From: an uncultured Bacteriovorax sp. | GTDB lineage: Bacteria > Bdellovibrionota > UBA1018 | DNA: 64,000 nt | NCBI GenBank assembly: GCA_964432565.1 | Contig: CAYSOA010000005.1 | Location: 24,022 to 88,021, forward strand | Direction: 5' to 3' | Part shown: in pieces, positions 16,187 to 31,915 of the stretch | Numbering within the stretch: the first letter of the stretch is position 1 | How the letters are laid out: every line of letters begins with the position of its first letter | The notes under the pieces: generated by a model | Database searches by the model: none | Told to the model about the DNA's origin: nothing | What the model saw: the letters and a program-made list of their open reading frames with translations, nothing else | Translations under genes and position numbers: made by a program

Positions 16187-17193
16187 ATGATTGGTTCAAG
16201 CTCTGGGTGGATCGCTGTGCTAGCAGCGGAGTATCCGTTGCTCTCTGTCTATTGATTTGCGTCTATCTTGCTGTCTGGATGGATCTGAAGGTCGGTGCCG
16301 ACGTCCAGGCCCGCGTCGGGCCGAATCGAGCCGGTGCCGCCGGGATTCTGCAGCCACTTGCCTCCTGGATACGAGAGCTTCTCAAGTTCTCTCCACATAT
16401 TGGCGGTGCCGGCTTTCAGCGGAGCTGGTGGGCACCCATGATTCCTTTGGTGTTGATGATTGGATTGGTGCCGACTACCGGGGCCGGACCACTCCTTCGA
16501 GCGCCGATGTCCGTGTTTCTGGCCCTTTTTCTGGGTCTCTGCTTTTCGTGCCTGGGTCTGATCATGGGATGGCGCTCAGGGCGCCTGGAGGTGAGGTTTG
16601 CCTCCATTCGAGCGGCATCACTCGCGCTGGCCGCAACGCCGCCAGCCTTGATGGCCATCACAGTGGCCGGCCGTGCTGCGGGAGGATTTTCGTGGGAGGC
16701 CATCGACCAGGCTCAGGGAGCGCTGCCGATGCAGTGGATTGGTTTTTCGGGCGCCTCGGGGCTGCTTGCGTCGGTGATCTTTCTTCTCGCAGGGATGCTG
16801 CTCTTTCTAATGCCCCCCTTTTCAAGTACCGGTCGAAACCTCAAACTCCTGATGAGTGCGATGGTTGGACCTGTTGGAGCACGGCAGCTCTGGGTGGAGC
16901 TGTCTGTTCGTGGTGCGGCGACCTGCTGGATGCTGCTTGCCGCGCATCTTTTTTGGGGCGGATCAAGAATTCCGCTGTGGCTGGAGCAGTTTCTAGGACC
17001 TGCTTCGCTCGCCACCAGGACCGTCGAGCTAGGTGTCATCTCCGCTAAGGTTCTTCTAATCCACCTGTTGATGTCACTGATGTCGAGGATGATGCCGACG
17101 GTGCGATCGGATCAGGCGCATGACTTCGCCTGGCGAGTGTTGACTCCGGCGGCACTGCTTTCTCTTGTCATGATGAAGCTGGGGGGCGCGTGA
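16183..17193 (+). CDS. NuoH-like membrane subunit (set 1)
   Basis: RVGPNRAGAAGILQPLASWIRELLKF matches the NuoH motif (RxGPNxxGxxGLLQPxAD). Polytopic. Confidence 0.6.
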   Translation: MNDWFKLWVDRCASSGVSVALCLLICVYLAVWMDLKVGADVQARVGPNRAGAAGILQPLASWIRELLKFSPHIGGAGFQRSWWAPMIPLVLMIGLVPTTGAGPLLRAPMSVFLALFLGLCFSCLGLIMGWRSGRLEVRFASIRAASLALAATPPALMAITVAGRAAGGFSWEAIDQAQGALPMQWIGFSGASGLLASVIFLLAGMLLFLMPPFSSTGRNLKLLMSAMVGPVGARQLWVELSVRGAATCWMLLAAHLFWGGSRIPLWLEQFLGPASLATRTVELGVISAKVLLIHLLMSLMSRMMPTVRSDQAHDFAWRVLTPAALLSLVMMKLGGA

Positions 17194-17720
17194 AATACGG
17201 ATTCGCTGGCGCCTTTATCGACTATTGGGGTTCGGTCTATCGATCCATTGCCTCCCTTTATCGGGCAGGAAAGGCCGGCGTCGCTTACCTTCGAGTTCGA
17301 AGCGAGACCAAAAAGGAAGTGACGGAGCAGTATCCGGATCCAGTCTCGTCTCGATCCTCCGAGGAGCTTCCGCCGAGAACTCGTGGCAAACTAAGGAACG
17401 ACATCCTCCGATGCACCGGGTGCGGCGACTGTGTGCGGATCTGTCCAACCAAGAGCATTTCCATGGAGACCATGGAGGGTGCAAAGCCAGGCAAGCTCTG
17501 GATTTCGATCTTCAACATCGATCACGCGAGTTGCATCGCTTGTGGACTTTGCGTTGACGTCTGTGAGCCGAGATCTCTGGTCCATGAGCGGGTTCATCAA
17601 GGTGCCGCCGTCAGTATCGAGGAGCATCTCCTGAGTTTTGGCCGGGGGGCGGTGTCCGAGAGCATGAGGGAGCTCTGGAGAAAACAACGCGTATTGGAGA
17701 GTGAAGGAGACCACCTATGA
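17190..17720 (+). CDS. NuoI-like 2x[4Fe-4S] ferredoxin subunit (set 1)
   Basis: Two CxxCxxCxxxCP motifs (CTGCGDCVRICP and CIACGLCVDVCEP). TEQYPDP aligns to canonical TIQYPEE. Confidence 0.65.
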   Translation: MKYGFAGAFIDYWGSVYRSIASLYRAGKAGVAYLRVRSETKKEVTEQYPDPVSSRSSEELPPRTRGKLRNDILRCTGCGDCVRICPTKSISMETMEGAKPGKLWISIFNIDHASCIACGLCVDVCEPRSLVHERVHQGAAVSIEEHLLSFGRGAVSESMRELWRKQRVLESEGDHL

Positions 17721-18220
17721 ATTCCTGGGTGATTGGGGTCTCACTGGGGTTGCTCGCAGTTTCTGCAGCCATCGTGTCTCTTTGGCGGGAGCCCCGCGCC
17801 GGCGCGATCGCAGCCTGGGTCAATGGGTGTGCCGCCGCCTCGGTGATGCTTTTGTTTCAGTCCGAGGTTTTGGCTTTGTTTCTGGCAATCAACTCGACCA
17901 TCGTTGCGCTAGCCGCCTTCTTGAACTCGGACACGATGGCCCTCAAGCCGCCGGAGTCGCACCGGTCGCCTTCCGTGTTCCACGTGAAGAATTGGCTTTC
18001 GCTTCTGGCGAGCGCGGCGCTTGGGGTGACCGTGGTCGGAGTGTTTCGCAGCACGATTCCGGTGCCTTTTGACGAACTTGCCGAGACCACCGCAAATGCC
18101 CTTGTGGGAGCTTCAACCGAGGAGAACCATGTGAGTTACCAGCTGGTTGCCCTGTTGGGACTGGTTGCAACCGTTGGCGCGGCCGTCATTGCCAGGCCGG
18201 AGAGGCCCGAGAATGATTGA
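17717..18220 (+). CDS. NuoJ-like membrane subunit (set 1)
   Basis: 167 aa, hydrophobic with about 5 TM. Its position between the NuoI-like and NuoK-like genes matches canonical order. Confidence 0.45.
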   Translation: MNSWVIGVSLGLLAVSAAIVSLWREPRAGAIAAWVNGCAAASVMLLFQSEVLALFLAINSTIVALAAFLNSDTMALKPPESHRSPSVFHVKNWLSLLASAALGVTVVGVFRSTIPVPFDELAETTANALVGASTEENHVSYQLVALLGLVATVGAAVIARPERPEND

Positions 18221-18506
18221 AGTGTTTGGCGCGTTGTTCGGAATCGGGTTTTTCGGTTTGTTGACCCAGAGATCGCTGGTTTCGGTTTTGTTGAATCTTC
18301 AGGTCATGGTGACGTCGCTGGTCCTAGTGCTGGTGGTCTCATCTCAGACTTTTTCTCCAGTGAGTCGAGAGAGAGCGGGCCACGCAGCACTGGCGATTCT
18401 GCTGGTGTTTGGAATCCAGGTTGCCGCCGCGCTGGCTTACGCGACGCGGCTTCACTATCTGAGGCGACGATCAGGCATGGATGATCTGAAGTCGATGAGG
18501 CACTGA
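18213..18506 (+). CDS. NuoK-like membrane subunit (set 1) with both conserved glutamates replaced by glutamine
   Basis: ATG 18213 overlaps the upstream stop. MIEVFGALFGIGFFGLLTQRSLVSVLLNLQVMV aligns to canonical Nuo[11 protein letters not shown] appears at both positions that are E in canonical NuoK (31597). Confidence 0.55.
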   Translation: MIEVFGALFGIGFFGLLTQRSLVSVLLNLQVMVTSLVLVLVVSSQTFSPVSRERAGHAALAILLVFGIQVAAALAYATRLHYLRRRSGMDDLKSMRH

Positions 18507-18508
18507 GC

Positions 18509-20431
18509 ATGGCGCGACAGTTCTTTCCCTGGATTCTTGTGCTCGCAATCAGTCTCTCCACGGTTTTCGCAATGCTCGGCGGTGGAATTCTGAATCGCTG
18601 GAGGACGCTTTTGAGCGGGCTGTGCTGGGCCGCCTTTCTGGGTTTAATCGCGGCGGCGATGATCATCATGACGGATGGAGGTGGACCGGCGCAATGGGCT
18701 GTGGATTTCATGGCCATTCCGATCAGCGCCGATGCTGCGAGGCTTGGGGTTGAGAACTCGCTGGTAGGCGTTCTGGTCTGCTGGCTGATCGCCCTGGTCT
18801 ACGGTTACGTTTTTTTTCTGGATCCCGCGTTTGGGGACAGATCGTCGGATTTCCGGCCCCAGGGGGGCAGCCACATTCAGGGCTCTGCGTGCCTCGGGAT
18901 GGTTGCCGTCGCGTTGGCCTGGTTTTCCTCGAGTTACTGGACCCTGCTCATGGCACAGGCTCTTTCAGTTTTGGCAGGGTGGACGGTGCTCTCAAGCCTC
19001 GCAAACTCCCGACTTTCTTCGGCGCCGGCATTTGCCCAGATCTCGGTGACCTTTCTTCGAGAGAAGGCTGGCTCCATGGCGCTTTTGATCCTGGGAGGGG
19101 GAATTTGCGCTTCGTCCGGCGCTTCGTTGGACTGGACCCGCACATCGCTTCATCTTCTTCCCGTCTCCGGTGTCGCGCTGATTCTCTTTGGGTGTCTTCT
19201 TCAGATGGGGATGTTTCCCGCAATCAGCTGGAATACTCGCCTGACAGGAGGGTGCAGCCTCCCGTCGAGCGTTCGGCTCCTATTGGTCAACCCGGCACAA
19301 TGGGTCTCTTTTGTCGTTGTTCTTCGTCTGTTCGGGACAGGTACCGTCCAGTTTCAATCGCTAGCCATGCCGATTCTTGTGGCAGTTCTCTTGACTACCC
19401 TTGTGGCGTTAGTCGCCAAACCTGCTCAGGCGGCGCTCACCCATGTCAGTGCCTCCCTCTCGGGACTGGCAGTGGCGGTACTGCTTCTTGCGGGAGTCCG
19501 GCAAGGAGCAGCGTTTTTCCTGACAAGCCAGCTGCTCCTCTGGGGGGCAGCCCTATTCCTGCGTCGCCCGTCCACAGGAACCCGTCTGGGACGGATCGAT
19601 CACTGGGTGGCAGGGCTATTGCCTCTCGCAATCTGCGCGGGGCCCGGAACGGTTTCTGCCGCGGCGTTGCTCGCATTATTGGAGGGATCGAGATCCTCTA
19701 TCATCCTCTCCCTTTCTGTGGCGGCCTGGATATTCTTCTCGCTTGCGATGGTTCGAGCGATGGCTCTGGGTGCTGCACCGACCGAGGGCACAGTCGAACA
19801 GGAGCTCGGCATGACGGATCGAACCTCGGCAGGATGGCGGGCGACGCCGGCCGTTGTTTTGGCCCTGATTTCGACGTCGATTCTCTGGACGGGAGACCTT
19901 GTGGGACGATTTTCGGGCCACGAGTTCGCCCCCGTCGGGCCAAACTGGTCGGGGGCGCTCTTTGGCACCGAGACCCTCGCTTTCCGATCAGCGCCGATGG
20001 ACTCGATCGTCTGGGGCTGGATGCTCACTCTCGTGGTTTTGGTGTCAGTCGATTCGGGCAAGCGCCTCGCACGAGCTGAATTGGGATTTCTTCGACTGGC
20101 GTCGGACGGCTATCGCGTTTCGATGCTCGTCGACCGCACCCTTCAACTGATGGTGCGAGCGCTGCTTCGCGCGGACCGTGGTCTGGCCATGATTGAGGCG
20201 CACGCGACAGACCTGGCACTGGCGCGAGGGTTCGGCTGGGTCTGTAGCGCGACTGCCGCTGCAGATCGCTGGTTGAGAGATCGGTTCGATCGGTTGGTCC
20301 GTGGAGCCATTGAAATACCGGCAAAGGGTGTTCAGTTACTGCAGGCGGGAAGTGTGCAGTTCTACATTCTGTTTGCGGTTGGATTCGTTTTGGCCATGTT
20401 GCTACATTTCTGGAGCCATCTGAACAGCTGA
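18509..20431 (+). CDS. NuoL-like antiporter-family subunit (set 1), highly divergent
   Basis: 640 aa, about 14+ TM, with a long C-terminal region. Motif LAGWTVLS aligns to canonical FLGWEGVG (TM5 Glu absent). Confidence 0.5.
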   Translation: MARQFFPWILVLAISLSTVFAMLGGGILNRWRTLLSGLCWAAFLGLIAAAMIIMTDGGGPAQWAVDFMAIPISADAARLGVENSLVGVLVCWLIALVYGYVFFLDPAFGDRSSDFRPQGGSHIQGSACLGMVAVALAWFSSSYWTLLMAQALSVLAGWTVLSSLANSRLSSAPAFAQISVTFLREKAGSMALLILGGGICASSGASLDWTRTSLHLLPVSGVALILFGCLLQMGMFPAISWNTRLTGGCSLPSSVRLLLVNPAQWVSFVVVLRLFGTGTVQFQSLAMPILVAVLLTTLVALVAKPAQAALTHVSASLSGLAVAVLLLAGVRQGAAFFLTSQLLLWGAALFLRRPSTGTRLGRIDHWVAGLLPLAICAGPGTVSAAALLALLEGSRSSIILSLSVAAWIFFSLAMVRAMALGAAPTEGTVEQELGMTDRTSAGWRATPAVVLALISTSILWTGDLVGRFSGHEFAPVGPNWSGALFGTETLAFRSAPMDSIVWGWMLTLVVLVSVDSGKRLARAELGFLRLASDGYRVSMLVDRTLQLMVRALLRADRGLAMIEAHATDLALARGFGWVCSATAAADRWLRDRFDRLVRGAIEIPAKGVQLLQAGSVQFYILFAVGFVLAMLLHFWSHLNS

Positions 20432-20442
20432 GGACGCAGACA

Positions 20443-22035
20443 GTGACCCTACCCCTACTGACAGCGATGATTCTAACGCCCCTTGCAGGTGCCGCGGTGC
20501 AGGCGATGACGCCGAGGCAACCGTTGTCGCGGCTGCTAGCCCTCTCCAGCAGCTTGATTTCAGCCATCATCGGTTTCGCGGTGCTGGCTGGGGCTTTTTC
20601 GGCCGATGACCCCGAATCCTTTCCGGAAAGATTCTCCTGGGTGGGATCCTATGCGATCTCCTACGATCTCGCCGTCGATGGCATGGCTCGGATTGCCGTA
20701 CTCATCGTCAGTGTCCTGTTTCCGGTCCTGATTGCCGCCGAATGGCGCCGATCGTCAGGGTTCCGGGGGTTTTACGCCCTTTTGCTCGTTCTTCAGGGTG
20801 CACTTCTGGGAACGGTCTGCGCTCAGGATCTTTTTCTTCTGTTCTTCTTCTGGGGCCTTTCCTCAGTGCCTGTGTTTTTTCTGGTCGGCGTGTGGGGGGC
20901 GGACGGACGTGAGGCGGCCGCCTTTCGAACGCTGGTCACCTCAGCGGCAGGTAATGCGCTGTTCTTCGGAGCGTTGATGCTGGTCTACCACGCGAGAGAC
21001 CCTCACACCTTTTCGATCGCCGAGCTCACTGGAGGATTGCTTCCAGAGCGGTCGATTTCGGTGGCTGGAGTCTCATTTTCTCTCGCGCATGTTTCTTTCC
21101 TGTTGGTCTGCCTTGGCGTGGCCCTCCGAGTCCCGGTCTGGCCGTTCCACGGCTGGTTCACTCGGCTTGCCGATGCCGCTCCTCCTACCGCGGCTGTTGC
21201 CGTTGCCGCCGCGATTGTTCCCTGCGGCGTGCAGATTCTTACCAGGCTGGGTCACCAGCTCTTTCCCAACAGCTTTTCAAATTATTCTGACGTGATCGTG
21301 CTGGTAGGGCTCGTCAATTTGATCATTGGTGCGCTCGCTGCGTTCGGGCAGCGAAAGCCGACGTCGCTTTTCTCGAGCCTCGTGCTTGCGGAGGTCGGTA
21401 TCTACCTGGTGGGCCTGGGGAGCAGCCATCCCAGTGCATTGCTAGGAACAGTTTATCATCAGCTTTGTAGTGCCCTGGCTCTGGCAGTGCTCGGGCTGCT
21501 ATTCGGCTCGATTTACCAGAAGAGTCCTCAGATCGACCTTCTGAGTCAGCGCTCGGGATCGGCTGCGCTCATGAGCGATGCACCTGTTGCGGGTGTCGTG
21601 ATGGCCTTGTCGCTGGCGACGCTGGCAGGGGTTCCCGGGCTGGGGGGGTTCATCGGACAGAGTCTGGTGCTCATGGGCGGGTTCGTGCGCTCGCCGATGA
21701 TACTGGCGCTGGTCGGCATGTCGGTTCTTCTGATCGGCATATGCCTTTTTGGAACGTACCGGGTGCTGTTTCTTGGTGGGGGGACCCAGGGGCGTTCCGG
21801 GGAGTCTCACGAGCTTTCATTCCGAGAGAAAACTTACCTCATCCCTCTGGTGGTTCTGATGGTTGCTCTGGGTGTTTATCCCAAGCCCCTCCTCGACGTC
21901 ATTCACCCGGCGACGGATCGTCTGGTAGTTTCGGGCACCGATGTTCCTCGTGATGTCGGTGGAGCACCAGACTCCGGGATCTTGCCGAACGGTGAGCAGC
22001 CCCCCATCGTCGAGTCGTCGGAAGCCCGGGAATGA
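20443..22035 (+). CDS. NuoM-like antiporter-family subunit (set 1), divergent
   Basis: 530 aa polytopic. FFWGLSSVPVFFLVGVWG aligns to canonical FWEFMLIPMYFLIGIWG. ALRVPVWPFHGWF aligns to AIKVPLFPLHTWL. Confidence 0.5.
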   Translation: MTLPLLTAMILTPLAGAAVQAMTPRQPLSRLLALSSSLISAIIGFAVLAGAFSADDPESFPERFSWVGSYAISYDLAVDGMARIAVLIVSVLFPVLIAAEWRRSSGFRGFYALLLVLQGALLGTVCAQDLFLLFFFWGLSSVPVFFLVGVWGADGREAAAFRTLVTSAAGNALFFGALMLVYHARDPHTFSIAELTGGLLPERSISVAGVSFSLAHVSFLLVCLGVALRVPVWPFHGWFTRLADAAPPTAAVAVAAAIVPCGVQILTRLGHQLFPNSFSNYSDVIVLVGLVNLIIGALAAFGQRKPTSLFSSLVLAEVGIYLVGLGSSHPSALLGTVYHQLCSALALAVLGLLFGSIYQKSPQIDLLSQRSGSAALMSDAPVAGVVMALSLATLAGVPGLGGFIGQSLVLMGGFVRSPMILALVGMSVLLIGICLFGTYRVLFLGGGTQGRSGESHELSFREKTYLIPLVVLMVALGVYPKPLLDVIHPATDRLVVSGTDVPRDVGGAPDSGILPNGEQPPIVESSEARE

Positions 22036-23522
22036 ATGCACTGATTTTTCTGCTGCCGGAAATCTACCTCGTTGCGACGGCCCTTGGACTGGTCGTCGCA
22101 GAGAGTTCGCATCATGGTGAGCGAGTGAGGCTGGCGCTGCCCACCAGTCTCCTAGGAATTTCGGGAGCATTGATTCAGGTGCTTTTGTCCTACCGCGGTG
22201 GCCCCACCCAGATCTTTGCCGGCACCTTGACCGTCGATGGTTTCACCCTATTCTTCAAGATGCTCTTTCTGGCGCTAGCGGCAATTGTCGTGACCTCCGC
22301 CTGTATCGGGCACGAAATTCCACGAAGGCTGCGTTCGGAGTTCTGCTCGTTGGCGCTTCTTGGAACCGTGGCATTGATGCTGGCGGCAAGTTCCTCCAAT
22401 CTTTTCGTCACCGTTCTGGCACTTCAACTGGCCGGGTGTGTGGGCTATTTTCTGGCCGGATTTCAGAAAGAGAGTGCCCGGTCGGCCGAAGCTTCGGTGA
22501 AGTGGATGATGTCTTCCCTGGTTTCGGGGGTGTTTCTGCTTCTTGGGGCGATGGTTCTGTTCCTGATGACCGGAACCGTGAACCTCTATGAGCTCAGCCA
22601 GCTTCTGTCGGCCGGGGGATATTCAGCCCGCGAGGCGGTTCTGGTTTTTTCGATCATTTTTCTGGGTCTCAGCATGCCGATGATGATCTTCCCAGGACAT
22701 CTTTGGGCGGCTGATGTCCTGCAGGGGGCCAATACTGCGGCAGGGACCTACCTTGCTGCCGGCCTCAGAGCGGCCACCTTCGCCGTTGCCTCCAGGGTTT
22801 GGGTCATTGTTTTTTCCAGCGCCAACGGCGACTCGGGCCGCTGGCTGCCGATGGGAGGATGGGACTGGACCCGCTGGTTGGGGTTTAGTGCGGCAATGAC
22901 TTTGGTGCTTCCCGCCCTGATGAGTGTGCGCCAGCAGAGTGCAAAACGGCTGCTGGCCTGCGTCGCCACAGTTCAGGGTGGCTTTCTGCTGCTTGGCCTG
23001 CTGGTCCTCGAAGAGATCGGGCTTGCAGCCGTGCTCTTCGGACTGCTGGTGGAACTTTTGTCCTTTGGTGGTCTGATGTTCGTGCTGTCATTGGCGGTGT
23101 CACGGAGCGGCTCAGATGAGCTCGACCGGCTTCGGGGCTGCCTTCGTGGTCGTCCATGGGAATCCGTGGCACTTCTGCTTTGCTCGATCGCATGGGTGGG
23201 CCTGCCACCCTTTGCAGGGCAGATCGGAAGGTTCGCCTTGATGGGGGCTGCAGTCCGGCGGGAGTGGTTCATTCTTGCCTTCGTGGGGCTTCTGGCGACC
23301 GTTTTAACGGTTGGGGCAATGGGGCGCCTCATGCTGACGGTGCTGGACCTGGGCGGTGAGTCGCGATCCCGGGTGGTTCAGGGGAGCGCTGGCCTCGAGC
23401 GCACTCCTTTCGATGTGCGGAGCTTTCTTGTCGGAGTTCTGGTGCCGTTGGCTACGGTCACCATTTTGGCGGACTGGCTCTTGCGGTGGACCAGCCATTC
23501 CCTGAAGTTTATTTTCTGGTAG
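22032..23522 (+). CDS. NuoN-like antiporter-family subunit (set 1), divergent
   Basis: 496 aa polytopic. N-terminal LPEIYLVATALGL is like NuoN. VLALQLAGCVGYFLAGF aligns to canonical IALELMSISVYVLVGF. Confidence 0.5.
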   Translation: MNALIFLLPEIYLVATALGLVVAESSHHGERVRLALPTSLLGISGALIQVLLSYRGGPTQIFAGTLTVDGFTLFFKMLFLALAAIVVTSACIGHEIPRRLRSEFCSLALLGTVALMLAASSSNLFVTVLALQLAGCVGYFLAGFQKESARSAEASVKWMMSSLVSGVFLLLGAMVLFLMTGTVNLYELSQLLSAGGYSAREAVLVFSIIFLGLSMPMMIFPGHLWAADVLQGANTAAGTYLAAGLRAATFAVASRVWVIVFSSANGDSGRWLPMGGWDWTRWLGFSAAMTLVLPALMSVRQQSAKRLLACVATVQGGFLLLGLLVLEEIGLAAVLFGLLVELLSFGGLMFVLSLAVSRSGSDELDRLRGCLRGRPWESVALLLCSIAWVGLPPFAGQIGRFALMGAAVRREWFILAFVGLLATVLTVGAMGRLMLTVLDLGGESRSRVVQGSAGLERTPFDVRSFLVGVLVPLATVTILADWLLRWTSHSLKFIFW

Positions 23523-23558
23523 CTCGCTCTTCTTCCGCTGCGCTATAACCCAGAAGCA

Positions 23559-23918
23559 ATGGAATACATTCCGGTTCTGATCCTGATGGCCGTCGGTACG
23601 GCGGTCGGGGTGGGCGCGATGACGTTGTCGGCCCTCCTTGGACCCAAAGCCCCTAATCGACGCAAGAATATGCCGTTCGAGTGTGGTGTCGAGCCGCATG
23701 GCGATGCACGACACCGATTCTCGGTGCGTTTCTATCTTGTTGCGATTTTGTTTCTACTTTTTGATGTCGAGGCACTGTTCTTCTATCCATGGGCGGTTGT
23801 TTATAAGAAATATCTGAGCATCAACGCCTTCATTCTTTTTGAGATGGCGGCGTTCGTGCTCATCCTTCTGGTGGGTTATCTCTACGTCCTGGGCAAAGGT
23901 GCCCTCGAGTGGGATTAG
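23559..23918 (+). CDS. nuoA: NADH-quinone oxidoreductase subunit A
   Basis: Canonical NuoA motifs PFECGVEP and [15 protein letters not shown]. Confidence 0.9.
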
Positions 23919-23955: not shown

Positions 23956-24468
23956 ATGTCTAAAGACGGATCATCCAGCTTCCTGACAACCAAACTCGAG
24001 GCGATTGTGGACTGGGGTCGCAAGAATGCCCTGTGGCCGCTGCCCTTCGGTACCAGCTGCTGCGGCATCGAGATGATGGCCACTTTTGCTGCGGACTACG
24101 ATATCGGCCGCTTTGGTGCCGAGGCCCTGCGCTTCTCCCCGAGGCAGGCGGACCTTCTGATCGTTGCAGGGATCGTGAACGCCAAGATGGCCCCGGTTCT
24201 CAAGAATATCTACGACCAGATGGCCGATCCCAAGTGGGTTATCTCAATGGGGGCCTGCGCGTCATCGGGAGGCATTTTCAACGTGTATAGTGTCACCCAG
24301 GGTATCGACACCATCATCCCAGTGGACGTCTACGTTCCGGGTTGTCCTCCGGCGCCCGAAGGGGTCCTTCATGGGCTGATGCGCCTTCAGGAGCTGATCC
24401 AGAAGGGCGAGACCCATCACCACCGATGCGAGCGGGCCCGACGTGCAGGAAAGGAGGCCCAGTCATGA
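23956..24468 (+). CDS. nuoB: NADH-quinone oxidoreductase subunit B
   Basis: [22 protein letters not shown] and [10 protein letters not shown] 23956 follows SD GAGG, whereas the ORF-track start 23839 adds a non-homologous extension. Confidence 0.9.
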
Positions 24469-25043
24469 GGGGTGCAGACATTCGGACTCCCGTGTCGACA
24501 GTTTACGGCGATTTCTCGAAGAAGTTCGCAGAGACTTGGAAGTCTCAGGTTCAGGAGCTGCAACAGAGATTCGGGGCCGTCATTGAAGAGGTTCGATGGC
24601 CCGGTGTTTACCCCACCGATGTTCCCATTGTCTTTGTGGCTCGCGAGTCGATCGTCGATGTGCTTCGGGTCCTTAAGGAAGAGTCCGCGTTCCGGTATGA
24701 CTTTCTGGCAGACATCACGGCGACGGATGAGGAAGTAGAGCCGCGCTTCGAGGTGGTCTACAACCTGGCGTCGATTGCATCGGGGTCGCGGATTCGCGTC
24801 AAGGTTCGAGCGCGTGAAGACGAGCAAGTCCCGTCTGTGACCGTTGTTTGGGCCGGAGCAGACTGGGCTGAGCGCGAGGTATGGGACATGTTTGGGATCC
24901 GCTTTCGCGGCCACCCGGATCTGCGCCGGATTCTGATGGATGAGCGCTGGGAGGGACATCCCCTGCGCAAGGATTACCCTCTTCGTGGCTATCAGCTTTT
25001 TCCAGATACCCAGCCCATCAACGTCGAACTGCTCAAGGATTGA
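24465..25043 (+). CDS. nuoC: NADH-quinone oxidoreductase subunit C
   Basis: 30-kDa-subunit family ([22 protein letters not shown]). ATG 24465 follows SD AAGGAGG and overlaps the nuoB stop. Confidence 0.85.
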
Positions 25044-25046
25044 TCG

Positions 25047-26318
25047 ATGGAACAGCAAAGACCGCATGGAGAGTTCGGGCTTCCCGCATCTGACAACTAT
25101 ACGATCAGCGTGGATGTTCCAGCGCATGAGCACGATCCGGATGACCTTTGGAAGGATTCGAGGGTTTTCGTCAATATCGGCCCCACCCACCCAGCCATGC
25201 ACGGCGCATTGCGGATGTGCGCCCGGTTGAATGGCGAAACGATCGAAAAGTCCTATTGCGAGTTTGGCTACACACACCGGGCAAAAGAGAAGCTCGGAGA
25301 GAATCGCACCTACCACAACTTTATCGTTTATACGGACCGGCTGAACTATTGCTCGGCACTGATCAACAATGTGACCTATGCCATGGCGGTGGAGCGCCTC
25401 ATGGGCATTGAGGTTCCCGATCGCGCCGTGTGGATTCGCATGATCTGCACCGAGATGGCTCGCGTCATCGATCACTTGATTTGTGTTGGCGTCAACGCGC
25501 TCGATCTCGGCGCTTTTTCTTTCTTCCTGTATGGCTTTCATCAGCGAGAAGAGGCCTACACCCTGATCGAGAAGATTTGTGGAGCGCGCCTGACGACCTC
25601 CTACACCCGAATCGGCGGTTTGATGGCGGATGCTCCCGCAGGCTGGGAGAAGGAAGTCAAGGACTGGGTCATTCGTACCCGGAAGACAGTTCAAGAGATG
25701 GACTCTCTTCTGACCAATAATCGCATCTGGTGCGACCGCACCCAGGGTGTCGGGGTATTCACGAAAGATCAGTGCATGAAGTACAGCTATTCGGGGCCGA
25801 ATGCCCGGGCGGCCGGTATCAATCGCGACCTCCGTCGCGATCAGCCTTCCATGTTCTACGACAAGGTCGAGTTTGATGTCCCTGTCGGAAAGAATGGCGA
25901 CGTCTTTGATCGTTACATGGTCCGAATGGCCGAGATCTTTCAGTCTCTCAACATCATCGCCCAGTGCGCGGAAAAGATGCACCCCGGGCCGATCTGGTCC
26001 GAGGACAAGCGAATCCGCATTCCGGACAAGGACGTCGTTCACAACACGATGGAAGGCCTGATCCACCACTTCAAGTTCTTCATGACGGGCTTCGACGTTC
26101 CTGCTGGTGAGGCGTACACGAGCTTCGAGGCGACCAATGGCGAGCTCGCTTTCTATATTGTCAGCAAGGGTGGACCGAGAGCCCATCGTATGCGAATCCG
26201 CGGACCATCGGTTTGGCACTACCAGGGCCTGAGCGAGATGTCTGAAGGGGCGAAGATCGCCGACATGGTTGCGGCGCTCGGTTCGATCAATATCATCGCA
26301 GGCGAGCTGGATCGCTGA
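25047..26318 (+). CDS. nuoD: NADH-quinone oxidoreductase subunit D
   Basis: 423 aa with GPTHPAMHG, RLNYC, RIGGLMAD and a C-terminal IIAGELDR. Confidence 0.9.
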   Translation: MEQQRPHGEFGLPASDNYTISVDVPAHEHDPDDLWKDSRVFVNIGPTHPAMHGALRMCARLNGETIEKSYCEFGYTHRAKEKLGENRTYHNFIVYTDRLNYCSALINNVTYAMAVERLMGIEVPDRAVWIRMICTEMARVIDHLICVGVNALDLGAFSFFLYGFHQREEAYTLIEKICGARLTTSYTRIGGLMADAPAGWEKEVKDWVIRTRKTVQEMDSLLTNNRIWCDRTQGVGVFTKDQCMKYSYSGPNARAAGINRDLRRDQPSMFYDKVEFDVPVGKNGDVFDRYMVRMAEIFQSLNIIAQCAEKMHPGPIWSEDKRIRIPDKDVVHNTMEGLIHHFKFFMTGFDVPAGEAYTSFEATNGELAFYIVSKGGPRAHRMRIRGPSVWHYQGLSEMSEGAKIADMVAALGSINIIAGELDR

Positions 26319-26329
26319 GGAGGAAGACG

Positions 26330-26803
26330 ATGTCCAAGCTTCTGTCCCAAAAGTTTTATGACGAGATGAATAAGCTCGAGCCACGCTATCCAACCAAGGT
26401 GGCGCTGCTCTTGCCGGCACTTCATGCGGCGCAGTCGGAGTTCGGCTGGTTGCCGGGTGAAGTCATGGACGAGATCGGTGAGTACATCGGAATTCACCCG
26501 GCGCAGGTGCGCGAGGTGGCCAGCTTTTACACGATGTACAATCTCAAGCCCGTCGGAAAATACCACCTGAAGATCTGCACGAATGTAGCGTGCTGCCTGC
26601 GTGGGGCTGATGAGCTGGTGGAGCACTGCGAGAAGAAGTTCGGCATCCAGTGCGGCGAAACCACCCCGGACAAGCGCTTTACCCTGATGGAAGAAGAGTG
26701 TCTCGGTGCCTGTGGGACGGCCCCCGCCATGATGTTGAACGATGACTACCACGAGAATCTGACCGCCGAGAAGCTGGACCAGCTCTTGGCAGGCCTGAAA
26801 TGA
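26330..26803 (+). CDS. nuoE: NADH-quinone oxidoreductase subunit E (24 kDa, [2Fe-2S])
   Basis: Cys pattern CTNVACCLRG...CLGACGTAP typical of NuoE. Confidence 0.85.
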   Translation: MSKLLSQKFYDEMNKLEPRYPTKVALLLPALHAAQSEFGWLPGEVMDEIGEYIGIHPAQVREVASFYTMYNLKPVGKYHLKICTNVACCLRGADELVEHCEKKFGIQCGETTPDKRFTLMEEECLGACGTAPAMMLNDDYHENLTAEKLDQLLAGLK

Positions 26804-28092
26804 GCGAGGAACGGGCGATGTCTGAATCCACTCCAATGTTCAAGCCGCACTTCCATGAGGAGGCGCGTCCACTCGCCTATTATCTGGCGAAAATGAATGG
26901 CTATACGGCGTTGAAGAAGGCACTTGGGATGGCGCCTGACGCCATCATCGACGAGATGAAGAAGTCCAACATGCGAGGCCGCGGTGGCGCAGGTTTTCCC
27001 ACCGGCATCAAGTGGGGATTTATCCCGAAGCAGAGCTCCAAGCCGAAGTATCTGGTCTGCAATGCCGATGAGTCGGAGCCCGGAACCTTCAAGGATCGGG
27101 ACATCATGCGCTACACGCCACACCTGCTCATCGAGGGCATGGTGATCGGGGCGCATGCCATTGGAGCAAACAGTGGTTATATCTATATTCGGGGGGAATA
27201 TACCCGAGAGGCGCGCCTCCTGAATGAGGCCATCGATGAGGCCTATGACAAGGGTTATCTCGGCAAGAACATCCTGGGCTCGGGATTTCACTTCGACCTG
27301 ACGGTACATCGTGGGGCCGGCGCCTACATCTGCGGAGAGGAGACCGCACTGCTGAACTCCCTTGAGGGCAAGCGCGGCGAGCCTCGGGTGAAGCCGCCGT
27401 TTCCGGCACAATCCGGAGCCTTTGCCGGTCCGACCATTGTGAACAATGTCGAAACCCTTGCAGCAGTTCCCATGATCATCAACGAGGGTGGCGAGTGGTT
27501 TGCCAAGCTTGGCAGGCTTGAGAAGTCGGGTGGTACCCGTCTCCTGTCGGTTTCAGGCCATGTCAAGAAGCCCGGCGTGTACGAGATTGGCGCGGGCAGC
27601 ATGACCATTCGGCAGATCATTTTTGATCTGTGCGGAGGAGTCCTGGGCGACAAGAAGTTGAAGGCCGTCATTCCCGGCGGATCTTCGGCTCCGGTGCTCA
27701 CCGCTGACGAAATCGACGTGATTTACGACATTGAGCCCCTGATGAAGATCGGCTCAATGATGGGGTCGGCCGCACTGATGGTGGTCAGCGAGGATTACTG
27801 CGTGGTGAAGCTGATCAAGCGCATCACGAAGTTCTATGAACATGAGTCCTGCGGGCAGTGCACGCCGTGCCGAGAGGGTTGCAAGTGGATGGAGGATATC
27901 CTTCATCGCATCGAGCACGGCCACGGCCGCGAGCAGGATCTGGATCTGCTTTTAGACATCGCAGAAAACATCAACGGAAAGACGCTTTGCGCGCTGGGCG
28001 ATGCCGCCGCAGGCCCGGTCTCCAGTTTCGTGAAGAAGTTTCGCGCCGACTTTGAAGCGCACATTCGAGGTGGAAAATGCCCAAATGCATAA
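26800..28092 (+). CDS. nuoF: NADH-quinone oxidoreductase subunit F (51 kDa; NADH/FMN/[4Fe-4S])
   Basis: GRGGAGFPTGIKW, GEETALLNSLEG and C-terminal CGQCTPCREG. Confidence 0.9.
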   Translation: MSEERAMSESTPMFKPHFHEEARPLAYYLAKMNGYTALKKALGMAPDAIIDEMKKSNMRGRGGAGFPTGIKWGFIPKQSSKPKYLVCNADESEPGTFKDRDIMRYTPHLLIEGMVIGAHAIGANSGYIYIRGEYTREARLLNEAIDEAYDKGYLGKNILGSGFHFDLTVHRGAGAYICGEETALLNSLEGKRGEPRVKPPFPAQSGAFAGPTIVNNVETLAAVPMIINEGGEWFAKLGRLEKSGGTRLLSVSGHVKKPGVYEIGAGSMTIRQIIFDLCGGVLGDKKLKAVIPGGSSAPVLTADEIDVIYDIEPLMKIGSMMGSAALMVVSEDYCVVKLIKRITKFYEHESCGQCTPCREGCKWMEDILHRIEHGHGREQDLDLLLDIAENINGKTLCALGDAAAGPVSSFVKKFRADFEAHIRGGKCPNA

Positions 28093-29477
28093 TTGACGGA
28101 CGCGAGGTGGAGTTTTCGCCCGGCCAAAATCTCATTGAGGTGGCCAAGAGCGCCGGAATCGAGATTCCCCTGTTCTGTTATCATCCCGGGCTCTCGGTCG
28201 TGGCCCAGTGCCGAATGTGCGCTGTCGAGATCGAGAAGTTTCCGAAGCTCCAGACGGCCTGTTCGACCCCGGCGCAGGAGGGGATGGTCGTTCATACCCA
28301 GTCGGAGCGAGTGAAAAAGAACCAGAAGTCGGTGATGGAGTTTTTGCTCATCAATCATCCGCTGGACTGCCCCATCTGCGACAAGTCGGGCGAGTGCGAT
28401 CTCCAGGACCAGTCGTACAGTTATGGTGATGCCTACATGCGCACCTCCGAAGAGAGGCGAACCTATGTCGATCTCGATATGGGGCCTGTCATCAAAAAGA
28501 ACATGAATCGCTGCATTCATTGCACCCGCTGCATTCGCTTCGGCGATGAGATTGCCGGAATTCGCGAGATGGTGGCGATTCAGCGCGGAAACAACACCGA
28601 AATTACCACCATCGACGGACGCGCGCTTGAGACCGAGTACGCTGGCAATTACGCTGACATTTGTCCGACCGGCTCGCTGACGCTCAAGGATTTCCGCTTC
28701 AAGAAGCGGGCCTGGTTTCTCAAAAAGACCGCGACCGTCTGCGAAGGCTGTTCGCGCGGTTGCGCCATTGAGCTTCAGCATGAGGCCAACGTCATTTACC
28801 GCTGCATCGCCCGTGAAAACCTCGAGGTGAATCGCTACTGGATCTGTGACGAGGGCCGGTTCAACCATCAGTATATTCAGGCGCCTGATCGCATGGTGGA
28901 GCCATCCCTTCTGGCGAAGGGCGCACTCGAGATGACGACCTGGAAGGACGCCGTTCTCGGGGCTCGAAAGGCGCTCGAAGGCAGGAAGTTAGCCATTCTG
29001 GTGGGCTCAGACCTGACCCAGGAGGAAGTGGCCCTGATCCAGAAGTTTGCTCCGGAAAAGTTTCCTGGGGCATCGCTTCACCACTTTGGCACCGCCGGTA
29101 TTTCGTCCGCGAAGGATGACGATGCTGCCGATGCGCTCCTTAAGCGGAAGAGCCGCACCTCGAATCTTCACGGCGTGGAGAAGCTTGGGATTTCAGGGCT
29201 CACCACGATTCCGCAGGGGGCCGATGCCGTTCTGGTATTTCGAGGCGGAAGGGCGGAGCTTCCCAACCTGTCCGGCCTGAAAGTGGTCGGTGTTGGGGTC
29301 TTCCGGAAGGGAGAGGCCGAAGGCTTTGAGGCGGTCCTGCCGGGGGCTGCCTTTGCGGAAAAGGACGGTACCATTGTGAACTTCATGGGAATGGAACAGC
29401 GGCTCCGTCGGTCCGTCGTCCCCCCACGAGAGTGCAAGTCGGTTTCTGAAATTCTCATGATGTGGGCGAACCTCTAA
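28077..29477 (+). CDS. nuoG: NADH-quinone oxidoreductase subunit G, short form (466 aa)
   Basis: N-terminal 2Fe-2S and 4Fe-4S Cys motifs (CRMCAV, HPLDCPICDKSGEC, CIHCTRCIRF). The C-terminal domain is much shorter than the 780-900 aa forms. Confidence 0.8.
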   Translation: MPKCIIDGREVEFSPGQNLIEVAKSAGIEIPLFCYHPGLSVVAQCRMCAVEIEKFPKLQTACSTPAQEGMVVHTQSERVKKNQKSVMEFLLINHPLDCPICDKSGECDLQDQSYSYGDAYMRTSEERRTYVDLDMGPVIKKNMNRCIHCTRCIRFGDEIAGIREMVAIQRGNNTEITTIDGRALETEYAGNYADICPTGSLTLKDFRFKKRAWFLKKTATVCEGCSRGCAIELQHEANVIYRCIARENLEVNRYWICDEGRFNHQYIQAPDRMVEPSLLAKGALEMTTWKDAVLGARKALEGRKLAILVGSDLTQEEVALIQKFAPEKFPGASLHHFGTAGISSAKDDDAADALLKRKSRTSNLHGVEKLGISGLTTIPQGADAVLVFRGGRAELPNLSGLKVVGVGVFRKGEAEGFEAVLPGAAFAEKDGTIVNFMGMEQRLRRSVVPPRECKSVSEILMMWANL

Positions 29478-30598
29478 TGGAAACGATTCTTTCGATTTGG
29501 ACACAAAATGCCGAGTTCATCATCACTGCCGTCAAGGCGGTGGTGGTGGCCCTGACCTTGCTGCAGGTAGTGCCTTTGATGGTCTGGCTGGAGCGGCGCG
29601 GCTCAGCAGTCATGCAGAAGCGACTCGGACCGAATCGTCTCGGACCACTCGGTCTGTTTCAGGGGATCGCCGACGGAATCAAGGCTGTGTTCAAGGAGGA
29701 CAATCCTCCGGCGCATGTGCATAAGTTCTTTTACCGGCTGGCCCCGGTCGTCTGCCTGATTCCAGCCTACATGACTTTTGCCGTGATTCCTTTTGCGAGC
29801 TCCATCACGATCGGCGGCTACGTCATCAACTTCCAGATAGCCGACCTAAACGTGGGCTTTCTCTACATCTTTTCGATCGCATCGCTCGGCGTCTACGGGA
29901 TCATCATGGCGGGGTGGTCCTCGAACAACAAGTACTCGCTACTCGGAAGCCTGCGCTCGTCGGCACAGATGATCAGCTATGAACTTTCGCTCGGGCTGTC
30001 GGTGATCGGCATCCTGATGATTTTCTCCAGCGTGCGCCTCGGAGACATCGTGCTTCAGCAGGGAGAGTTGCTGCTCCAGCTCGGACCATTGTCGATTCCG
30101 AAGTGGGGTTTCTTCGTTCAGCCAGTGGGTTTTCTGATCTTTCTGGTTTCGGCTTATGCCGAGACCAATCGCCTCCCCTTTGACCTTCCTGAGGGTGAGT
30201 CGGAGATCGTAGCCGGCTATCACCTCGAATATGGTTCGATGCACTTCGCGCTGTTCATGATGGCCGAGTACATCAACATGACGGTGGCGGCGGCCTTGAC
30301 GGTGACCCTGTTCTTTGGCGGCTGGCAGATGCTGCCGGGGATGCCGGCACTTCACAGTCTTCTGGTGGAGAATCTCGGCCTCGTCGGTCTTGCTTCGGAT
30401 GCCGTCCGAGTGCTGTTCGAGCTGGGCTCCTTTGTAATGAAGACCGCGTTCTTCCTGTGGCTCTTCGTCTGGGTTCGCTGGACGCTTCCGCGATTTCGTT
30501 ATGACCAGCTGATGGATCTCGGATGGCGGGTGATGCTGCCGTTGTCGTTGCTCAATATCTTCGTTACCGGCGTTTTGATTTACTACAAGGTGGTTTGA
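29477..30598 (+). CDS. nuoH: NADH-quinone oxidoreductase subunit H
   Basis: LERRGSAVMQKRLGPNRLGPLGLFQGIADGIK. ATG 29477 overlaps the nuoG stop. Confidence 0.9.
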   Translation: METILSIWTQNAEFIITAVKAVVVALTLLQVVPLMVWLERRGSAVMQKRLGPNRLGPLGLFQGIADGIKAVFKEDNPPAHVHKFFYRLAPVVCLIPAYMTFAVIPFASSITIGGYVINFQIADLNVGFLYIFSIASLGVYGIIMAGWSSNNKYSLLGSLRSSAQMISYELSLGLSVIGILMIFSSVRLGDIVLQQGELLLQLGPLSIPKWGFFVQPVGFLIFLVSAYAETNRLPFDLPEGESEIVAGYHLEYGSMHFALFMMAEYINMTVAAALTVTLFFGGWQMLPGMPALHSLLVENLGLVGLASDAVRVLFELGSFVMKTAFFLWLFVWVRWTLPRFRYDQLMDLGWRVMLPLSLLNIFVTGVLIYYKVV

Positions 30599-30600
30599 AG

Positions 30601-31616: not shown

Positions 31617-31911
31617 ACCCTGGGTCGTGCTTTCGCTTTCGGCTGCAATCTTTTTTATTGGGCTTTTTGGCCTGGTGGTGCGCCGAAACCTGCTCATCAT
31701 CATGATGTCGATCGAGCTCATGCTGAACGCCGTAAATCTCTCTTATGTGAGTTTTTCGGCCCAGTTGTCCTCGATGATCGGCCAGATGTCGGTGTTTTTC
31801 ATCATTGTCGTGGCTGCAGCCGAGGCCGCCGTCGGCCTTGGACTGGTCATCGCGCTTTACCGCACCCTCAAGACCGTCGACACCGACGACATCACTCTCC
31901 TAAAGGACTGA
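31597..31911 (+). CDS. nuoK: NADH-quinone oxidoreductase subunit K
   Basis: 104 aa with the conserved glutamates in MSIELMLNA and AAAEAAVG. Confidence 0.85.
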
Positions 31912-31915
31912 TGCC

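What the first reader, a model, noticed from the sequence alone, without database searches (positions are those of the whole stretch)
23523..23558. Only 36 bp and no terminator separate the degenerate set from canonical nuoA: a possible 24-gene transcription unit
The nuoN-like gene ends at 23522 and canonical nuoA starts at 23559, with no hairpin or T-run between them. A candidate promoter (TTGACA at 14048) lies upstream of the nuoA-like gene. If the two sets are co-transcribed, the paralogous subunits would be made stoichiometrically with complex I. This would favour models in which they mix with or compete for the canonical NuoEFG/NuoC modules, for example to form an uncoupled NADH:quinone oxidoreductase.
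Basis: seen in the sequence. Interest (0 to 1): 0.55.

Follow-up and report, generated by a model that had tools for sequence, protein, structure and literature searches.

The report
Promoter-like seam between two nuo sets
The 36-base gap between a rewired complex-I-like gene set and the normal complex I operon is real and has no terminator, but it holds a conserved promoter-like motif. The normal operon can therefore probably be switched on by itself, so the 24 genes are probably not always made as one unit.

Summary
The nuoN-like gene stops at TAG 23520-23522, canonical nuoA starts at ATG 23559, and the gap is 36 nt. There is no intrinsic terminator or significant fold, and TTGACA sits at 14048.

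The tandem layout is conserved in all 28 distinct junctions recovered from Bdellovibrionota (Bacteriovoracaceae/Oligoflexia MAGs): mfd on the minus strand, then the 10/11-gene divergent nuo-like set, then canonical nuoA-N. Read-through from the conserved upstream promoter P1 (TTGACA-17-TAGCGT) is therefore plausible.

The gap is not featureless. In 24 of 28 junctions a TAG stop is followed by an 18-21 nt non-conserved spacer and then G-n-TATA[A/T] (window GCTATAAC, 23542-23549).
- Where this motif lies 6-10 nt from the nuoA ATG, as in the window, nuoA has no Shine-Dalgarno (SD) sequence. At -0.2 kcal/mol it is the weakest of 18 genes tested.
- Where the motif is far from the ATG or absent, an SD is present (p=0.002).
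- One relative has TTGAGA-17-TATAAC at the equivalent position.

Best reading: nested units. P1 transcribes set 1 and may read through. An internal promoter P2 gives a leaderless or short-leader canonical nuo mRNA. Stoichiometric co-production is not supported.

Caveats: the -35 position is weak, T at -7 is missing, and no transcript data exist.

The parts
14048..14076 (+). P1, candidate sigma70-type promoter of the divergent set: TTGACA (14048-14053), 17-nt spacer, TAGCGT (14071-14076)
   Evidence: Sequence. TTGAC[A/T]-17-TAnnnT is present in 13 of 14 distinct upstream regions across both clades. The tool's scan missed it because the -10 hexamer matches only 3 of 6.
14036..14064 (-). Candidate divergent promoter of mfd: TTGAAA (14064-14059), 17-nt spacer, TAAATT (14041-14036). 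It overlaps the P1 spacer.
   Evidence: Promoter scan. Its -35 hexamer is the reverse complement of the conserved TTTCAA in the P1 spacer.
14093..14099 (+). Shine-Dalgarno AAGGAGA of the nuoA-like gene
   Evidence: anti-SD duplex -9.3 kcal/mol.
14104..23522 (+). Divergent nuo-like set of 10 genes: A-like, B, D, H, I, J-like, K, L-like, M, N. It has no C, E, F or G. Most gene junctions overlap by 4 nt.
   Evidence: ORFs, Pfam and NCBIfam, residue analysis.
23508..23523 (+). Conserved 3' end of the nuoN-like gene: TTTATTTTCTGG, the TAG stop (23520-23522), then C. TAGCTC (23520-23525) sits where a -35 hexamer would be, 18 nt upstream of TATAAC.
   Evidence: Junction alignments. TAG is a rare stop here (2 of 24 nuo genes). 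It co-occurs with the downstream motif (Fisher p=0.0012).
23523..23558 (+). The 36-nt gap in the finding
   Evidence: Gap length is 32-37 nt in 20 of 28 junctions.
23542..23549 (+). Conserved motif GCTATAAC (G at -14, C at -13, TATAAC as a -10-like hexamer at 23544-23549). This is candidate internal promoter P2.
   Evidence: Present 18-21 nt after the stop in 24 of 28 distinct junctions, while the spacer between is not conserved. The two-part pattern occurs only once in the window, against 0 expected.
23555..23559 (+). Inferred transcription start zone, 6-10 nt after the hexamer. It would give a 0-4 nt leader.
   Evidence: Inference from spacing. No SD: anti-SD duplex -0.2 kcal/mol, the weakest of 18 genes. 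No transcript data.
23559..23918 (+). Canonical nuoA (119 aa), ATG start
   Evidence: NCBIfam NuoA. The N-terminus [13 protein letters not shown] is conserved in all relatives.
23956..36970 (+). Canonical nuoB to nuoN (13 genes, including a short 466-aa NuoG)
   Evidence: NCBIfam. Start codons set by homology.
36971..37004 (+). 34-nt gap after canonical nuoN. It has an SD (GAGAGGG), no terminator and no TATAA. It is followed by a TPR protein gene and serS.

Best explanation
The junction is a seam between two nested transcription units. It is neither a silent intercistronic spacer nor a terminator.

P1 (TTGACA-17-TAGCGT, 14048-14076) drives the divergent 10-gene set. No terminator follows the nuoN-like gene, so P1 transcripts probably continue into canonical nuoA-N.

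The 36-nt gap, together with the last bases of the nuoN-like gene, forms a second promoter-like element, P2. The stop codon TAG(C) lies at the -35 position. A 17-18 nt spacer of free sequence follows, then G-C-TATAAC at 23542-23549. Transcription would start about 6-10 nt later, at or just before the nuoA ATG. This would give a leaderless or very short-leader mRNA, which would explain why nuoA has no Shine-Dalgarno sequence.

Canonical complex I could then be expressed without set 1, while expression of set 1 may add extra canonical transcripts.

Shown: the coordinates, the conserved synteny, the conserved motif and spacing, and the link between SD strength and motif position.
Inferred: that the motif is a promoter, where transcription starts, and that read-through occurs.
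For: 1. Synteny. The N-like gene lies directly upstream of nuoA on the same strand in 28 of 28 distinct junctions.
2. Motif and spacing. In 24 of 28 junctions a TAG stop is followed by an 18-21 nt spacer of near-zero information content, then G-n-TATA[A/T]. This holds even where the gap is 62-154 nt, so the motif is positioned relative to the end of the upstream gene, not relative to the ATG.
3. Stop codon. TAG is rare here (2 of 24 nuo genes). The three non-TAG junctions are exactly those without the motif at that offset (Fisher p=0.0012).
4. L028. Its stop codon has moved, and it carries TTGAGA-17-TATAAC (5 of 6 at -35) at the equivalent position.
5. SD strength. In 18 junctions where the motif ends 6-10 nt before the ATG, SD pairing is weak (median -3.15 kcal/mol). 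In 9 junctions where the motif is far or absent it is strong (median -6.5; Mann-Whitney p=0.0018). Window nuoA is the weakest of 18 genes (-0.2).
6. Outgroup control. Among 75 nuoA genes from other phyla, the median is -6.9 kcal/mol and none has TATAW 5-11 nt before the start.
7. Uniqueness. Scanning the window for TATAWN, 5-11 nt, then ATG/GTG opening an ORF of at least 100 aa returns nuoA plus one antisense hit inside nuoD.
8. No terminator or stable fold at the junction.
9. Different constraint on the two sets. Set 2 is far more conserved and has higher GC3 in 9 of 9 genomes.
Against: - The -10-like hexamer has T at its sixth position (-7) in only 1 of the 21 motifs tabulated. In contrast, P1 and the mfd promoter in the same clade follow TAnnnT.
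- The -35 position in the window (TAGCTC) matches TTGACA at only 2 of 6, so the consensus scan does not call a promoter.
- The two conserved ends, GTAGC and GCTAT, form a 5-bp inverted repeat. A protein-binding site or a small stem therefore cannot be excluded.
- In the window clade, 8-10 nt separate the hexamer from the ATG. That is at the long end for a truly leaderless start.
- L015 (6-nt gap) shows the canonical set can do without a promoter in the gap.
- No transcript 5'-end or read-through data exist for any of these uncultured genomes.
Confidence: 0.58

Rival explanations
1. One obligatory 24-gene (or longer) polycistronic unit driven only by P1. The conserved TATAA motif acts on the RNA rather than as a promoter. 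It could be an A/U-rich single-stranded site for an endonuclease that splits the transcript, or a standby or S1 site that lets ribosomes start at an SD-less internal AUG.
For: Same strand, short gap, no terminator and fully conserved adjacency. L015 has a 6-nt gap with an SD. The motif departs from the clade's TAnnnT -10 rule and has a poor -35.
Against: The motif stays 18-21 nt from the upstream stop even when the ATG is 35-128 nt further on, and those loci then have their own SD. A translation enhancer should follow the ATG instead. L028 has a good TTGAGA-17-TATAAC promoter at the same place. No known RNA family matches and there is no covariation.
Confidence: 0.2
2. Two separate operons. 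Transcription from P1 ends at or near the end of the nuoN-like gene by a mechanism not visible in the sequence (Rho-dependent, or a short stem without a U-tract). P2 is the only promoter of canonical nuo.
For: The P2 evidence above. The two sets differ in evolutionary rate and codon bias. In several relatives the spacer can form a GC-rich hairpin closed by GUAGC/GCUAU (for example L002 at -14 kcal/mol). One such case is scored terminator-like in L026.
Against: No U-tract follows the stem in most loci. With the conserved ends held fixed, the spacers fold no better than shuffled versions (mean z -0.20, p=0.2). The window's own fold is weak (-5.3 kcal/mol). Ribosomes translate right up to the stop codon, which leaves Rho little free RNA to load on.
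Confidence: 0.14
3. The conserved ends GTAGC ... GCTAT are the two half-sites of an inverted-repeat operator, about two helical turns apart. A regulator binding there would gate read-through or nuo expression.
For: The 5-bp inverted repeat is nearly invariant and its spacing is fixed at 18-21 nt.
Against: The half-sites are only 5 bp. Three loci have a G-A mismatch and L028 lacks the left half entirely. The pattern occurs only once in the window, so there is no sign of a regulon. This reading does not explain the link between SD strength and distance to the motif.
Confidence: 0.06

Closest known systems
Long operons with internal (suboperonic) promoters, giving nested transcription units
   Same: A strong upstream promoter, no terminator between blocks, and a second promoter embedded at the end of an upstream gene so that the distal block can be expressed alone. 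This rests on general knowledge of bacterial operon architecture, not on a tool result.
   Different: The two blocks here are paralogous sets of the same enzyme. The putative -35 position coincides with the stop codon of the upstream gene. The -10-like element lacks the usual T at -7.
Leaderless or short-leader mRNAs, as mapped genome-wide in Deinococcus deserti (PMC4007540) and mycobacteria (PMC4633059)
   Same: A -10-like element a few bases upstream of an ATG and no Shine-Dalgarno sequence. In D. deserti the transcription start was at or very close to the initiation codon for 60% of mRNAs (abstract of PMC4007540, listed).
   Different: Nothing suggests leaderless genes are common in this genome. 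nuoA is the only genuine case in the 64-kb window. In the window clade the spacing of 8-10 nt suggests a 1-4 nt leader rather than none. No start sites have been mapped.
Canonical 14-gene nuo operon of bacterial complex I (nuoA-N)
   Same: Set 2 has all 14 subunits in the standard order with tight gene junctions.
   Different: It is always preceded by a divergent 10/11-gene paralogous set. nuoA lacks an SD, unlike 75 nuoA genes from other phyla. NuoG is short at 466 aa.
Complex-I-like enzymes without the NuoEFG module (11-subunit type: cyanobacterial NDH-1, archaeal Fpo)
   Same: Set 1 lacks E, F and G. It keeps the N2 cysteines in NuoB-like and both 4Fe-4S motifs in NuoI-like. The more distant clade still has a NuoC-like gene, giving 11 genes.
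   Different: In set 1 the quinone-ligating His and Tyr of NuoD are replaced family-wide by Pro/Ser and Pro. The TM5 Glu, TM7 Lys, TM8 Lys and TM12 Lys/Glu of all three antiporter-like subunits are replaced. NuoC is lost in the window clade. The comparison with NDH-1 and Fpo rests on my own knowledge.
Two nuo clusters reported in Bdellovibrionota (Peredibacter starrii genome paper, PMC13147790)
   Same: That paper notes that members of the phylum carry more than one nuo cluster with low identity between them.
   Different: It describes a nuoAHJKLMN cluster and a separate 14-gene cluster. It does not describe a tandem divergent set fused upstream of nuoA, nor the junction.

Membership tests
Sigma70-type promoter (P2 at the junction) | -10 hexamer of the form TAnnnT (A at -11, T at -7) | tested here: not met
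   TATAAC has T at -12 and A at -11 but C at -7. Only 1 of the 21 motifs tabulated has T there, whereas P1 and the mfd promoter in the clade obey TAnnnT.
Sigma70-type promoter (P2 at the junction) | -35 hexamer resembling TTGACA, 16-18 nt upstream of the -10 | tested here: inconclusive
   The window has TAGCTC (2 of 6) at an 18-nt spacing, and the scan does not call it. L028 has TTGAGA (5 of 6) at 17 nt. The TAG at this position co-occurs with the motif.
Sigma70-type promoter (P2 at the junction) | Two conserved blocks at a fixed distance, separated by a spacer of free sequence | tested here: met
   An 18-21 nt spacer with near-zero information content lies between conserved ends in 24 of 28 junctions.
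Sigma70-type promoter (P2 at the junction) | A mapped primary transcript 5' end downstream of the -10 | not testable with these tools
   No transcript data are available for these uncultured genomes.
Leaderless or short-leader mRNA | -10 element ending about 6-10 nt before the start codon | tested here: met
   9 nt in the window and 6-10 nt in 18 junctions.
Leaderless or short-leader mRNA | No Shine-Dalgarno sequence, and an AUG start | tested here: met
   Anti-SD duplex of -0.2 kcal/mol, the weakest of 18 genes. ATG is the start in every junction. The outgroup median is -6.9.
Intrinsic (Rho-independent) terminator between the sets | GC-rich hairpin followed by a U-tract | tested here: not met
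   No hit at the junction. Fold z = -0.53. Spacers fold no better than shuffles. No U-tract.
Single operon (co-transcription of all 24 genes) | Same strand, short gap, adjacency conserved across genomes | tested here: met
   36 nt in the window, and adjacent in 28 of 28 junctions at 33-64% N-like identity.
Single operon (co-transcription of all 24 genes) | No internal promoter, and one transcript that spans the junction | tested here: inconclusive
   A conserved promoter-like element is present. Spanning transcripts cannot be tested with these tools.
Energy-converting complex I (for set 1) | Quinone-site His and Tyr in NuoD, and Lys/Glu relay residues in NuoL, M and N | tested here: not met
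   NuoD-like: His to Pro/Ser and Tyr to Pro in all 16 set-1 sequences. The TM5, TM7, TM8 and TM12 charged residues are replaced in the L-, M- and N-like subunits.
Energy-converting complex I (for set 1) | Fe-S ligands of cluster N2 (NuoB) and N6a/N6b (NuoI) | tested here: met
   CC...C...CP motifs are kept in NuoB-like. CxxCxxCxxxC occurs twice in NuoI-like (Fer4 hits).
Canonical complex I operon (for set 2) | All 14 subunits nuoA-N in order | tested here: met
   NCBIfam names A to J. K to N come from ORFs and homology.

The most novel reading that the evidence does not exclude
A family-wide conserved complex-I-like module is chained to canonical complex I in order to work with it. The module keeps its Fe-S clusters but has lost the quinone ligands and proton-relay residues, and in the window clade NuoC as well. 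It would borrow NuoC and NuoEFG to build a second, non-pumping or differently specific isoform. The junction architecture, with P1 read-through plus a stop-codon-overlapping promoter P2 and a leaderless nuoA, would be the device that sets the ratio of the two isoforms.
Probability: 0.12. Interest if true: 0.8.

Novelty: new variant of a known kind. Interest (0 to 1): 0.45.

Why it matters
If P2 is real, the canonical complex I of these predatory-lineage bacteria is controlled independently of the rewired paralogous set. Models that rely on fixed 1:1 co-production of the two sets then lose their main support.

The strictly conserved tandem linkage across a family-level clade still points to some functional tie between the two sets. 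That tie is worth testing.

The junction also gives a compact, testable case of a promoter whose upstream half overlaps a stop codon, and of a respiratory operon that begins with an SD-less, probably leaderless, gene in a genome that otherwise uses SD sites. The element is small enough (about 50 bp) for direct reporter and mutational tests in a cultured Bacteriovorax.

Tried and rejected
- RNA hairpin enclosing the stop codon (GUAGC/GCUAU). RNAalifold gives only five nearly invariant pairs, -1.7 kcal/mol and no covariation. With the conserved ends fixed, the spacers fold no better than shuffles (mean z -0.20, p=0.2). The apparent z of -0.89 came from shuffling the conserved ends as well.
- Intrinsic terminator. 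None at the junction. The only hit among relatives (L026) uses the TATA motif as its 'tail'.
- Stop-codon read-through fusing N-like to NuoA. In the window, TAG, 12 codons and ATG are in frame. Gaps of 32, 34, 35 and 37 nt in relatives break the frame, so this is rejected.
- Internal promoter hit at 22227-22254 (TTGACC-16-TATTCT). It is not conserved in six relatives, so it is a chance match.
- Sigma54, sigma28, Rex-box and ECF-type readings of the motif, compared by eye with consensus sequences recalled from memory. None fitted both halves, and none was tested formally.
- Known RNA families. None at the junction.
- Regulon search. The two-part pattern occurs only once in the window.
- Search for a close relative that has canonical nuoA without set 1, to see whether TATAA is an ancestral nuoA promoter. 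Every NuoA homologue of 70% identity or more that I could place also had set 1 upstream. The roughly 50%-identity metagenome hits belong to other phyla and lack the motif. The ancestral state therefore remains open.
- Literature. No paper in the held library describes this tandem arrangement.

Full report
**1. Observation**

The sequence shows ...ATT TTC TGG TAG with the stop at 23520-23522, then 36 nt (23523-23558), then ATG at 23559.

The upstream ORF (22032-23522, 496 aa) is a divergent NuoN/Proton_antipo_M protein. It is the last of ten same-strand ORFs, mostly overlapping by 4 nt, from 14104 onward: A-like, B, D, H, I, J-like, K, L-like, M and N. No C, E, F or G is present.

The ORF at 23559 is NuoA. 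It is followed by B, C, D, E, F, G, H, I, J, K, L, M and N up to 36970.

No intrinsic terminator lies in or beside the gap. Terminator-like hits across 13500-25000 are at chance level, 18 found against 16.1 expected. The 151 nt around the gap fold no better than shuffles (z = -0.53). Rfam finds nothing.

TTGACA is at 14048-14053. It is followed after 17 nt by TAGCGT and then by an AAGGAGA ribosome-binding site 4 nt before the A-like ATG.

Two qualifications apply:
- A 36-nt gap can hardly hold a terminator. Similar terminator-free gaps occur between nuoA and nuoB (37 nt) and after canonical nuoN (34 nt, before a TPR protein gene and serS).
- The genome does have a strong terminator elsewhere, with a 15-bp stem at 2074-2107.

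**2. Relatives**

The N-like protein has only about 14 close relatives (55-64% identity) in 5.8 billion clustered proteins, before identity drops to 31%. The L-like subunit, which matches no Pfam family, has only 43 clusters at E of 1e-3 or better among 1.84 billion representatives.

I recovered junctions from several sources:
- contexts of the close N-like relatives;
- 23 related loci from a scan of GTDB species genomes, all Bdellovibrionota MAGs labelled Bacteriovoracaceae, Bacteriovorax, Oligoflexia or Bdellovibrionia;
- two metagenome loci;
- three further lineages reached through NuoA homologues.

Together these give 28 distinct junctions. In every one the N-like gene lies directly upstream of canonical nuoA on the same strand. 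Wherever the contig reaches that far, mfd lies divergently upstream of the A-like gene.

The canonical subunits are 63-96% identical to the window's within its own clade. The set-1 subunits from the same genomes are 29-64% identical. The more distant clade (33-43% N-like identity) mostly keeps a NuoC-like gene in set 1, making 11 genes; L028 is an exception and lacks it. The window clade has lost it.

**3. The gap is not featureless**

I aligned the junctions on the stop codon. In 24 of 28, a TAG stop is followed by an 18-21 nt spacer and then G-n-TATA[A/T]. In the window this is GCTATAAC at 23542-23549.

The spacer has almost no sequence conservation, while its length and both flanks are conserved. 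The motif keeps this distance from the stop even where the gap is 62-154 nt (L016, L026, L027, L029, L030). It is therefore anchored to the end of the upstream gene, not to the nuoA start.

TAG is an unusual stop here, used by 2 of 24 nuo genes against 20 that use TGA. The only three junctions with another stop codon are the ones without the motif at that offset (Fisher p = 0.0012):
- L015: TGA stop, 6-nt gap, SD present.
- L023: TGA stop, SD present.
- L028: TAA stop. Here the position corresponding to TAGCnn is occupied by TTGAGA, exactly 17 nt upstream of TATAAC. That is a good sigma70-type promoter.

Two conserved blocks, fixed spacing, a free spacer and replacement by a consensus -35 in one lineage together make up the anatomy of a promoter. 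I call it P2.

**4. Link to translation signals**

Where the hexamer ends 6-10 nt before the nuoA ATG (18 junctions, including the window at 9 nt), pairing to the anti-Shine-Dalgarno sequence is weak. The median is -3.15 kcal/mol.

Where the motif is far away or missing (9 junctions), a GGAG-type site precedes the ATG. The median there is -6.5 kcal/mol (Mann-Whitney p = 0.0018).

The window's nuoA, at -0.2 kcal/mol, is the weakest of 18 genes tested in the cluster.

Among 75 nuoA genes from other phyla, the median is -6.9 kcal/mol, and none has TATAW 5-11 nt before the start.

A scan of the 64-kb window for this configuration in front of an ORF of at least 100 aa returns nuoA and one antisense hit inside nuoD.

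This pattern is what a transcription start at or just before the ATG would produce, that is, a leaderless or very short-leader mRNA. Genome-wide mapping in Deinococcus deserti and mycobacteria shows that such mRNAs are a normal class in some bacteria (PMC4007540 and PMC4633059, listed).

**5. The upstream promoter**

The mfd/A-like intergenic region is strongly conserved in both clades. TTGAC[A/T]-17-TAnnnT is present in 13 of 14 distinct regions. Its spacer contains a conserved TTTCAA, which on the other strand is the TTGAAA -35 of a TTGAAA-17-TAAATT promoter facing mfd.

It also shows that ordinary promoters in this clade follow the TTGACA / TAnnnT rule.

**6. Weak points of the P2 reading**

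- The -10-like hexamer has T at its last position in only 1 of the 21 motifs tabulated. This is unlike P1 and the mfd promoter.
- The -35 position in the window matches the consensus at only 2 of 6, so the consensus scan does not report a promoter.
- The conserved ends GTAGC and GCTAT are a 5-bp inverted repeat. I tested an RNA stem. RNAalifold finds only those five nearly invariant pairs, at -1.7 kcal/mol and without covariation. Some relatives can form stable hairpins, but with the ends held fixed the spacers fold no better than shuffled spacers (mean z -0.20, p = 0.2). I therefore reject a selected hairpin.
- A small operator remains possible but does not explain the SD pattern.
- The sigma factor is unknown.

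**7. Most likely mechanism**

The two sets form nested units. P1 transcribes set 1 and, with no terminator, probably runs on into the canonical genes. In L015 this seems unavoidable.

P2 allows canonical nuo to be made alone. On read-through RNA the SD-less internal nuoA AUG would probably be translated poorly. This is an inference.

The faster evolution of set 1 and its lower GC3 in 9 of 9 genomes fit lower or different expression of set 1. I put confidence in the nested-unit model at about 0.58.

**8. What set 1 is (briefly)**

Set 1 is not decaying. Its ORFs are intact across the whole clade, and it has conserved motifs of its own. It is, however, rewired:
- NuoB-like keeps the four N2 cysteines, and NuoI-like keeps both 4Fe-4S motifs.
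- The quinone-ligating His and Tyr of NuoD are replaced in all 16 family members examined, giving GP[FY]H..LPGP and LDPE.
- The TM5 Glu, TM7 Lys, TM8 Lys and TM12 Lys/Glu of the L-, M- and N-like subunits are all replaced.

Set 1 lacks NuoC and NuoEFG and is always linked to a full canonical set. This leaves the module-sharing idea open, but the junction does not test it.

**9. Comparison with what is known**

The mechanism (an internal promoter, read-through and a leaderless first gene) is of a known kind. The arrangement is not described in the papers I could search. That arrangement is a rewired paralogous complex-I-like set fused upstream of canonical nuoA across a bacterial family, with a promoter-like element that overlaps the upstream stop codon.

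The closest mention is a Peredibacter genome paper. It notes two nuo clusters in Bdellovibrionota but not this tandem arrangement or its junction.

**10. Verdict**

The finding is moderately interesting, and transcript 5'-end mapping and reporter assays in a cultured Bacteriovorax would settle it.

Noticed in passing
window 14024-14103: Back-to-back overlapping promoters. P1 (TTGACA-17-TAGCGT, plus strand) and a candidate mfd promoter (TTGAAA-17-TAAATT, minus strand) share the same 45 bp. The -35 of each lies in or next to the spacer of the other. The whole block is conserved in both clades.
   Followed up: partly
window 15068-16186 (NuoD-like) and its homologues in L002-L030: The quinone-binding His and Tyr of NuoD are replaced in all 16 set-1 sequences examined. 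A new conserved motif, [RH]-L/I-D-P-E (window: RLDPD), stands in place of the canonical RLNY.
   Followed up: partly
window 18509-23522 (L-, M- and N-like): All canonical charged relay residues of the three antiporter-like subunits are substituted (TM5 Glu, TM7 Lys, TM8 Lys/His, TM12 Lys/Glu). The L-like protein matches no Pfam family and has only 43 relatives (50%-identity clusters) among 1.84 billion representatives.
   Followed up: partly
loci L015, L018-L020, L024-L027, L029, L030, and the locus of P0013: The more distant clade keeps a NuoC-like gene between B-like and D-like in set 1, giving 11 genes. The window clade and L028 have lost it.
   Followed up: partly
L015 12358-14094, L028 12310-14064, L112 4905-6692, L113 5048-6706: In several relatives the canonical nuoC and nuoD are fused into one gene. 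In the window they are separate.
   Followed up: no
window 28077-29477: Canonical NuoG is only 466 aa, and 456-471 aa in all relatives. It covers only the N-terminal Fe-S part of the NuoG model and little of the molybdopterin-like domain.
   Followed up: no
window 23520-23561: TAG, 12 sense codons and the nuoA ATG are in one frame, so stop-codon read-through would fuse N-like to NuoA. Relatives with gaps of 32, 34, 35 and 37 nt break the frame, so this is probably accidental.
   Followed up: yes
window 36971-41556: Canonical nuoN is followed after 34 nt (SD present, no terminator) by a 1014-aa TPR-repeat protein gene, then serS after 14 nt, then a tRNA at 41470-41556. By the 'short gap, no terminator' criterion alone, the unit would run beyond 24 genes.
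   Followed up: partly
window 2074-2107: A strong bidirectional terminator-like hairpin (15-bp stem, 11 GC pairs) lies between convergent genes. The genome does use such structures where there is room.
   Followed up: no
set 1 versus set 2 in the window and eight relatives: GC3 of the canonical set is 4-9 points higher than that of the divergent set in 9 of 9 genomes, whatever the genomic GC content. This hints at different translational selection or expression.
   Followed up: partly
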